Shown here: positions 24,901 through 25,268 of the stretch, in pieces | Layout of the letters: each line of letters opens with the position of its first letter | Numbering within the stretch: the stretch's first letter is position 1 | IMG/VR virus record: IMGVR_UViG_2706794671_000003 | From: a virus | Lineage: Duplodnaviria; Heunggongvirae; Uroviricota; Caudoviricetes | Length of the DNA: 25,268 nt | Reading direction: 5' to 3' (one strand) | Program-made: the position numbers

Positions 24901-25268
24901 NNNNNNNNNNNNNNNNNNNNNNNNNNNNNNNNNNNNNNNTTGTTCCATGCGGAGATTAAAGATTGGAATATAACGCGAAGATGGAATTAAATTACATTTG
25001 CAATAATTAATTTATTATTACTCAATAATTACCGATATTATTATTGTAAATTAATCATTAGAATGCAAAAAGAAATGTAACGGCAAAATAAGAGGACGAT
25101 AGCTGAGAAAAAAGCGTGCTTTCCCAATCTGGGGCAAATCACGTCTGAATGACACCTGAAAACAGGTGGTAGCCTCAAGAAGGCTGGTGATGCTGCCAAC
25201 TTACTGATTTAGTGTATGATGGTGTTTTTGAGGTGCTCCAGTGGCTTCTGTTTCTATCAGCTGTCCCT

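What the first reader, a model, noticed from the sequence alone, without database searches (positions are those of the whole stretch)
25153..25268. IS1 inserted in the accessory region downstream of tfa
The last 83 bp of the window are the left end of IS1 (inverted repeat at 25186 and the insA start at 25241), immediately preceded by a short hairpin (cacctg-aaaa-caggtg, 25153..25168). Together with the H and lom lesions this points to a prophage in decay, and whatever lies right of tfa in a typical lambda may be disrupted or displaced.
Basis: partly seen in the sequence, partly recalled or inferred. Interest (0 to 1): 0.45.

Follow-up and report, generated by a model that had tools for sequence, protein, structure and literature searches.

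The report
IS1 insertion in lambda-like prophage end
The last 83 bases of the window are the left end of the common jumping gene IS1, sitting in non-coding DNA near the right end of a decaying lambda-like prophage; the same insertion is already in dozens of sequenced E. coli genomes, so it is ordinary.

Summary
Window 25186-25268 matches the IS1 left end 83/83: the 23-bp inverted repeat starts at 25186 and the insA GTG is at 25241. The 6-bp hairpin at 25153-25168 exists but is no more than chance would give.

The IS1 lies 749 bp downstream of tfa, in the non-coding accessory ("b") region of a lambda-like prophage. The identical junction, AAGAAGGCT|GGTGATGC, occurs in at least 79 complete E. 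coli genomes and 12 IMG/VR contigs. Most of those contigs break off inside IS1, so the window end is probably an assembly break.

In all 10 complete genomes read across the element, IS1 is a full 768 bp but has no target-site duplication. It replaces 550 bp of the intact locus seen in the viable phages ev099 and mEp332. One IMG/VR contig has a 741-bp deletion instead.

The lost DNA holds a fossil attachment site, made of nt 29-90 of tRNA-Ser serU plus captured host DNA. This lies upstream of an AraC-family regulator that is 246/247 identical to the EDL933 CP-933H regulator (probably PatE).

The H lesion (113-bp deletion) and the lom lesion (83-bp deletion) are real. This is a known element in an already annotated insertion. 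Interest is low.

The parts
25186..25268 (+). Left end of IS1, the first 83 of 768 bp, cut off by the window end
   Evidence: 83/83 identical to six IS1 copies. RefSeq annotates the match as an IS1A-family transposase. A 100%-identical IMG/VR contig (L015) continues as IS1 for 7 more bases, and others continue for 259-768 bp.
25186..25208 (+). IS1 left terminal inverted repeat (IRL, 23 bp), GGTGATGCTGCCAACTTACTGAT
   Evidence: Read directly from the sequence. The right repeat in relatives ends ...GAGTCATTACC, 768 bp later.
25193..25220 (+). Promoter-like site (CTGCCA, 16-nt spacer, TATGAT) partly inside IRL, in the position of the known insA promoter
   Evidence: Consensus scan. The link to the IS1 promoter in IRL rests on established knowledge of IS1 and was not tested here.
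25241..25268 (+). First 9 codons of insA (GTG start; V/M-A-S-V-S-I-S-C-P)
   Evidence: In relatives the RefSeq CDS starts at IS1 position 56, which equals 25241.
25177..25185 (+). The 9 bp AAGAAGGCT immediately left of IS1. This is where a target-site duplication copy would be.
   Evidence: No second copy follows IS1 in any relative. No simple insertion with a duplicate exists in 5426 complete E. coli genomes or in IMG/VR.
25153..25185 (+). Two short hairpins (25153-25168 and 25171-25185) abutting the insertion point
   Evidence: Not beyond chance and not terminator-like.
25101..25185 (+). First 85 bp of a 213-bp module conserved at the right ends of several lambdoid prophages. It is interpreted as the arm of an old serU-type attachment site. 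IS1 splits it 110 bp before the tRNA-derived core.
   Evidence: The module (L003 7162-7374) recurs at prophage ends next to serU/zinT (L026) and uspF/ompN (L025), and ends inside GGTCTCGAAA.
24437..25185 (.). AT-rich non-coding spacer (32% GC against 55% for the window) between tfa and IS1. It includes the N mask at 24690-24939.
   Evidence: 98-99% identical to the same spacer in phages mEp332, PhiR70_1 and ev099.
23855..24436 (+). tfa (tail fibre assembly, 193 aa), the last intact prophage gene before IS1
   Evidence: ORF list and annotation of the matches.

Best explanation
A copy of IS1 is inserted, with insA reading rightwards, between 25185 and 25186. IS1 is 768 bp long, has 23-bp terminal inverted repeats, and makes its transposase by a frameshift fusing insA and insB'. 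The site is the non-coding accessory region of a lambda-like prophage, 749 bp downstream of tfa. It falls inside a fossil arm of an old tRNA-Ser (serU)-type attachment site.

This is one historical transposition event, shared by descent with many E. coli genomes, in which the prophage sits at the lambda attachment site next to ybhB-bioA. In those genomes the element is complete but has no target-site duplication. Its right end abuts DNA that lies 550 bp further right in the intact locus. The insertion was therefore accompanied or followed by an IS1-associated adjacent deletion. That deletion removed the fossil att core (serU nt 29-90), the 278 bp of captured serU-yodB host DNA and about 100 bp beyond it. 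IS1 now lies 206 bp upstream of a PatE-like AraC-family regulator gene.

The window stops 83 bp into IS1, most likely because a short-read assembly broke at this multicopy repeat.

Shown: the identity of the IS1 end, the exact junction, the nature of the interrupted locus, and the structure in relatives. Inferred: that this genome has the same right junction, that the deletion was transposase-mediated, and any effect on the regulator.
For: IS1 identity: 83/83, with supporting annotation.

Same junction: present in 79 complete E. coli genomes and in 12 IMG/VR contigs, two of them 100% identical to the window over 20000-25268. Nine of the 12 IMG/VR stretches stop less than 350 bp into IS1.

Intact locus: seen in E. 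coli 2024CK-00188 and in the viable phages ev099 and mEp332. There is a 550-bp gap between the two IS1 flanks.

Right junction: IS1|CTTATTGGC occurs in 122 complete genomes. All 10 genomes read across the element have both junctions and no duplication.

No simple insertion: none in 5426 genomes or in IMG/VR.

Variant L007: it has the same left junction and the same IS1 marker (C at position 757), but a 741-bp deletion that ends 15 bp before the regulator's ATG.

Deleted segment: serU nt 29-90 plus 278 bp of K-12 serU-yodB intergenic DNA, 97.4% identical.

True attachment site of these phages: lambda-type, with core GCTTTTTTATACTAA in ev099 and attR next to ybhB in 13P477T.

Mechanism: absence of a duplication is a recognised result of adjacent deletion or IS-IS recombination (PMC11708052).
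Against: The window ends inside IS1, so nothing about its own right junction is observed. The window's prophage is not identical to any complete E. coli genome in the collection; its tfa region is at most 97.9% identical at full coverage. It could therefore carry an earlier or a different state of the locus. The left-junction count (79) and the right-junction count (122) disagree for reasons I could not resolve. Adjacent deletion cannot be told apart from recombination between two IS1 copies by the final structure alone.
Confidence: 0.75

Rival explanations
1. A simple IS1 insertion. The source genome has a complete IS1 flanked by a 9-bp duplication of AAGAAGGCT, nothing is lost, and it represents the ancestral state from which the deleted forms in other genomes derive.
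For: IS1 normally makes 9-bp duplications. An unrelated IS1 copy in L022 shows TTTATCGAC on both sides. The window's prophage differs from all complete genomes examined, so an ancestral state is conceivable.
Against: None of 5426 complete E. coli genomes and no IMG/VR contig has this structure. Every relative with the identical left junction that can be read across IS1 has a deletion.
Confidence: 0.12
2. The IS1 marks the border of a larger rearrangement. Recombination between this IS1 and another of the genome's IS1 copies has inverted or deleted DNA, so the prophage's natural right end (regulator, attR, ybhB-bioA) is no longer next to it.
For: IS1 is multicopy, with a median of 10 and up to 68 matching places per genome. 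In E. coli 2023CK-01509 the neighbouring IS1 copies border the loss of most of this prophage, from ral to just downstream of tfa. The window's contig stops in IS1, so linkage is unknown.
Against: All 10 complete genomes inspected with this left junction keep the regulator and ybhB-bioA or the equivalent to the right.
Confidence: 0.1
3. Only a truncated IS1 remnant (a solo left end) is present, not a whole element.
For: Only 83 bp can be seen in the window.
Against: Contigs with the same junction continue as IS1 for 90, 259, 331, 753 and 768 bp. All complete genomes have the full 768 bp.
Confidence: 0.03

Closest known systems
IS1 (IS1 family; IS1A/IS1R-type copies of E. coli and Shigella)
   Same: The first 83 bp are identical, including the 23-bp IRL, the promoter-like site and the insA GTG start. 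In relatives the element is 768 bp long with insA/insB' and an annotated programmed frameshift.
   Different: Nothing differs in the visible part. In relatives the copy at this locus has a C instead of G at position 757, inside the right inverted repeat, and has no target-site duplication.
IS-associated adjacent deletions (classically IS1 in the gal region, from my own knowledge; general case in PMC11708052)
   Same: One IS end stays fixed while the DNA next to the other end is lost, with no duplication. Two deletion sizes (550 and 741 bp) share the same left junction and the same IS1 copy marker.
   Different: The mechanism is inferred from end products only. Recombination between two IS1 copies would give the same 550-bp structure.
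The b (non-essential accessory) region of phage lambda, between tfa and attP
   Same: Same position: after J-lom-stf-tfa and before attP-int-xis. The attP core is lambda-type, and the structural genes are about 96% identical to lambda-like phages.
   Different: The content is not lambda's ea47/ea31/ea59 (from my own knowledge). Instead there is an AT-rich spacer, a fossil serU-type att site with captured host DNA, a PatE-like AraC regulator and IS remnants.
PatE (z0321, OI-8/CP-933H of E. coli O157:H7 EDL933), a prophage-encoded AraC-like activator of acid resistance
   Same: The gene right of IS1 in relatives encodes a 247-aa protein that is 246/247 identical to the AraC-family regulator of the EDL933 prophage region at 309 kb. 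Its best family matches are YdeO and GadX. PatE is described in PMC10877973.
   Different: I infer that EDL933_RS01490 equals z0321 from its position and family; no table confirmed it. The gene lies beyond the window, so its presence in this genome is not shown.

Membership tests
IS1 family insertion sequence | Left terminal inverted repeat of about 23 bp, GGTGATGCTGCCAACTTACTGAT | tested here: met
   Window 25186-25208 matches exactly.
IS1 family insertion sequence | insA reading frame starting about 55 bp inside the left end | tested here: met
   GTG at 25241 equals IS1 position 56, and is the same start as the RefSeq CDS in relatives. Only 9 codons are visible.
IS1 family insertion sequence | insB' frame and the -1 programmed frameshift that gives the InsAB' transposase | not testable with these tools
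   This lies beyond the window end. In relatives with the same junction it is annotated as 'programmed frameshift'.
IS1 family insertion sequence | Matching right inverted repeat, for a total length of about 768 bp | not testable with these tools
   This lies beyond the window end. It is met in the L001, L007 and L020-L023 and L028-L030 relatives.
IS1 family insertion sequence | Target-site duplication of 8-9 bp flanking the element | not testable with these tools
   The right flank is not in the window. In relatives with the identical left junction it is absent: AAGAAGGCT on the left against CTTATTGGC or AATTGGGTG on the right. This is explained by a 550- or 741-bp deletion and does not argue against IS1.
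Lambda-like prophage (context) | Nu1-A-W-B-C-D-E...Z-U-V-G-T-H-M-L-K-I-J-lom-stf-tfa order with high identity to viable lambda-like phages | tested here: met
   94% of 1-24689 aligns at 96.2% to phage PhiR42_1, colinear with its annotated genes.
Lambda-like prophage (context) | Intact essential tail genes, meaning a functional rather than defective prophage | tested here: not met
   A 113-bp out-of-frame deletion in H at 13847/13848 leaves an ORF of 758 aa instead of 853.

The most novel reading that the evidence does not exclude
The tfa-to-attP accessory region of this lambda-like phage family is a fossil of natural specialised transduction. An ancestor integrated at serU excised imprecisely. 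It carried off its old attR, 278 bp of serU-yodB host DNA and the adjoining PatE-type acid-resistance regulator, and later switched to lambda-type int/att. The IS1 seen in the window is now eroding this fossil by nested deletions of 550 and then 741 bp. These bring the IS1 right end to within 15 bp of the regulator's start codon, so in some strains the regulator may be expressed from IS1 read-through instead of its own promoter.
Probability: 0.3. Interest if true: 0.35.

Novelty: already known. Interest (0 to 1): 0.1.

Why it matters
It matters little in itself. IS1 is among the best-known insertion sequences, and this very insertion is already annotated in many RefSeq E. coli genomes.

There are two practical points. 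First, the window ends where a short-read assembly most likely broke at a repeat, so it says nothing about what follows. Second, anyone looking for the usual 9-bp duplication to confirm the insertion would probably not find it, because relatives carry an adjacent deletion.

The only mildly interesting biology is the context. The IS1 sits in a fossil attachment site upstream of a PatE-like acid-resistance regulator, and different deletion end points place IS1 at 206 bp or 15 bp from that gene.

Tried and rejected
(1) Finding the source contig. The 46-nt junction gave no hit in the species-representative genomes. IMG/VR gave 12 contigs, two of them identical to the window end, but they also stop inside IS1.

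(2) Finding a simple insertion with a duplication. None exists in complete E. coli genomes. Flexible and exact junction patterns also found none in IMG/VR.

(3) Finding the right-hand junctions in IMG/VR, to link them to the genomes identical to the window. The 550-bp type is absent, and the 741-bp type occurs only in L007.

(4) Testing for a known RNA at the insertion site. Rfam found nothing there in the window (E-value threshold) or in the intact locus L003 (gathering threshold only). ARAGORN calls no tRNA in the intact locus, because the serU piece is only the 3' 62 nt.

(5) The hairpin as a terminator or insertion signal. Rejected: there is no T-run and it is not beyond chance.

(6) The 55-aa ORF that the ev099 annotation places across the insertion point. 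It has no family match in NCBIfam or PHROGs, so I treat it as a non-gene.

(7) Counting 741-bp-type junctions in complete genomes. The search cannot separate them cleanly: 129 against 122 records leaves at most 7 candidates, and none was seen in the 40 rows listed.

(8) The original PatE paper (PMC3416394) is not held in the library.

Full report
**1. The observation**

The window ends with ...GTAGCCTCAAGAAGGCT|GGTGATGCTGCCAACTTACTGATTTAGTG....
- From 25186 to 25268 the sequence is 83/83 identical to the first 83 bp of the IS1 copy in E. coli 13P477T and of five other IS1 copies.
- RefSeq annotates the matching DNA as 'IS1-like element IS1A family transposase', with the CDS starting at the equivalent of 25241.
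- The 83 bp do not distinguish between IS1 copies.
- A consensus scan finds CTGCCA-16-TATGAT at 25193-25220. From established knowledge of IS1, this is where the insA promoter lies, partly within the left repeat.

The hairpin CACCTG-AAAA-CAGGTG is at 25153-25168, and a second one (AGCCT-CAAGA-AGGCT, 25171-25185) touches IS1.
- The first is one of 17 inverted repeats of at least 6 nt in 329 bp.
- The 85-nt segment folds only marginally better than shuffles (z = -1.96).
- No T-run follows.
- I give the hairpins no functional weight.

The window contains four N masks: 3140-3389, 17926-18221, 21887-22153 and 24690-24939. The last one corresponds to exactly 250 bp in the relative L001, so it is a mask and not a scaffold gap. 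The two '100-aa' and '91-aa' ORFs across it are artefacts.

**2. The window end is probably an assembly break**

The 46-nt junction is absent from the species-representative genomes. It is present in 12 IMG/VR contigs.
- Two of them (L015, L010) are 100% identical to the window end: L015 over all unmasked bases of 20000-25268, L010 except for two mismatches in 20000-21886.
- L015 continues as IS1 for just 7 more bases.
- Nine of the 12 stretches stop less than 350 bp into IS1.
- This pattern is typical of short-read contigs breaking at a multicopy repeat. IS1-matching places have a median of 10 and a maximum of 68 per E. coli genome.
Contigs with the same junction continue as IS1 for 90 to 768 bp.

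**3. The interrupted locus**

The structural genes of the window are about 96% identical to, and colinear with, viable lambda-like phages such as PhiR42_1, mEp332 and ev099.

In ev099 and mEp332 the region after tfa has this order:
- about 1.5 kb without convincing genes;
- an AraC-family regulator gene;
- IS remnants;
- in ev099, the lambda attP core GCTTTTTTATACTAA, then int and xis (the mEp332 record ends after the IS remnants).

The IS1 therefore lies in the equivalent of lambda's non-essential b region, 749 bp after tfa (tfa ends at 24436).

The spacer is AT-rich, 32% GC against 55% for the window. It matches no Rfam family.

In the intact locus (E. coli 2024CK-00188, L003) the insertion point falls 85 bp into a 213-bp module. 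That module recurs at the right ends of other lambdoid prophages, next to serU/zinT and next to uspF/ompN. It ends inside GGTCTCGAAA.

Immediately after the module come nt 29-90 of tRNA-Ser serU and 278 bp that are 97.4% identical to the K-12 serU-yodB intergenic DNA. In strains where the same tfa-spacer module ends a prophage truly integrated at serU, the identity simply runs on into yodB (L004).

My reading, which is an inference, is that the 213-bp module is the arm of an old serU-type attachment site. On this reading the phage family carries a fossil attR plus captured host DNA, left by imprecise excision of an ancestor. The EDL933 prophage region shares the segment from the serU piece through the regulator but has a different left side. 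This fits a module boundary at that old core.

**4. What lies to the right in relatives**

The identical left junction is found in 79 complete E. coli genomes.

I read across the element in ten complete genomes: 13P477T, D10, APEC E956, 2023CK-01509, CH4793, PRO_A-1412-6M-A_ESBL, MS15047, 98206, and, by coordinates, EC21Z-147 and MLI023K1. In all of them:
- IS1 is a complete 768 bp;
- its right end is followed by CTTATTGGCTGTAAATAAG, not by a repeat of AAGAAGGCT.

In the intact locus CTTATTGGC lies 550 bp further right. IS1 has therefore replaced 550 bp: the rest of the att arm, the serU fragment, the captured host DNA and about 100 bp beyond it. IS1 ends 206 bp upstream of the regulator's ATG.

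No complete E. coli genome (0 of 5426) and no IMG/VR contig has a simple insertion with a duplication at this site.

One IMG/VR contig (L007) has the same left junction, but IS1 abuts AATTGGGTGGATGAT-ATG. This is a 741-bp deletion that ends 15 bp before the regulator's start. Its IS1 carries the same rare C at position 757, inside the right repeat, as the copy in the 550-bp genomes. Other IS1 copies have G there. This favours a second deletion starting at the terminus of the same copy over exchange with another IS1.

Absence of a duplication through adjacent deletion or IS-IS recombination is well documented (PMC11708052). IS1-promoted deletions are classical, as I know from my own knowledge.

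In seven of the eight genomes fetched for inspection the prophage lies next to ybhB-bioA; strain 98206 has paoD to the right instead. A lambda-type attR sits about 1.95 kb to the right of IS1.

**5. The neighbouring gene**

The regulator is 247 aa long. It is 246/247 identical to the AraC-family regulator of the EDL933 prophage region at 309 kb. Its best family matches are YdeO and GadX.

A review places PatE (z0321) on OI-8 of EDL933 and describes it as an AraC-like activator of acid-resistance genes (PMC10877973). The equation with PatE is my inference from position and family.

IS1 and the regulator point the same way. Whether IS1 alters the regulator's expression is untested.

**6. Is the prophage in decay?**

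Yes.
- Relative to PhiR42_1 the window lacks 113 bp inside H at 13847/13848. This shifts the frame, giving an ORF of 758 aa that ends at 13965, against 853 aa.
- It also lacks 83 bp inside lom near 20624-20629, giving 160 aa instead of 199.
- Neither lesion coincides with an N mask.

**7. Verdict**

The element is ordinary, and the insertion itself is already present and annotated in public genomes.

What I add is that the expected duplication will probably not be found, because relatives carry a 550-bp (rarely 741-bp) deletion next to IS1. I also identify the interrupted DNA as a fossil attachment site upstream of a PatE-like regulator.

What remains unknown is the right side in this particular genome. 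I estimate these probabilities:
- about 0.75 for the 550/741-bp-deleted structure;
- 0.12 for a simple insertion;
- 0.10 for a larger rearrangement;
- 0.03 for a truncated remnant.

**Unresolved:** the right junction is counted in 122 genomes but the left junction in only 79. Yet every right-junction genome I inspected has both.

Noticed in passing
window 24690-24939 (N mask); L001 5763-5864, minus strand: In relatives the masked 250 bp encode, on the minus strand, a 33-aa hydrophobic peptide, MKIQSKLIVLLNIIIAFILFELLAQKFGLSTLF. It resembles the small stress-response membrane protein YncL (25 bits, below the family cut-off of 35). A strong terminator-like hairpin with a T-run lies downstream on the same strand at window 24553-24529. 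It may be a small moron gene.
   Followed up: partly
window 13847/13848 (gene H, ORF 11689-13965): A 113-bp deletion relative to phage PhiR42_1 shifts the frame of the tape-measure gene H, giving 758 aa instead of 853. The remainder is readable in another frame (13787-14137).
   Followed up: yes
window 20624-20629 (lom, ORF 20153-20635): An 83-bp deletion relative to relatives, with a 6-nt overlap of the two alignments at the break, truncates lom to 160 aa from 199.
   Followed up: yes
window 24198-24396, + strand: Strong Rfam match to IS009 (RF02111; 218 bits against a gathering score of 117), lying entirely inside the tfa coding region. It is unrelated to IS1 despite the name.
   Followed up: no
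L003 7357-7696; L017 and L018 (phages ev099, mEp332); L024 3060-3400 (EDL933): Viable lambda-like phages and the EDL933 CP-933H region carry nt 29-90 of tRNA-Ser serU plus 278 bp of the K-12 serU-yodB intergenic DNA, just upstream of the PatE-like regulator. This looks like host DNA captured by imprecise excision from serU.
   Followed up: partly
L001 7003 (IS1 position 757); also L007 and L022 copy c: The IS1 copy at this locus has C instead of G inside its right inverted repeat (GTTCGAGTCATTACC against GTTGGAGTCATTACC). This is a useful marker of this copy, and it might weaken the right end.
   Followed up: partly
L022 (E. coli 2023CK-01509) 1-3150: Two further IS1 copies lie upstream of the shared one, and most of the prophage, from ral to just downstream of tfa, is gone. 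One of these copies shows a clean 9-bp duplication (TTTATCGAC).
   Followed up: partly
L020 (E. coli D10) 3382/3383: The left junction lacks the final T (AAGAAGGC|GGTGATGC). This is either a 1-bp change at the junction or an assembly error.
   Followed up: no
searches against complete E. coli genomes: The right IS1 junction is counted in 122 genomes but the left junction in only 79. All inspected right-junction genomes have both. The discrepancy is unexplained and may be technical.
   Followed up: partly
window 17926-18221 (N mask in J): The mask is 296 bases, where PhiR42_1 has 251 bases between the flanking alignments. This is consistent with the window's J being 15 aa longer (1180 against 1165 aa).
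   Followed up: no
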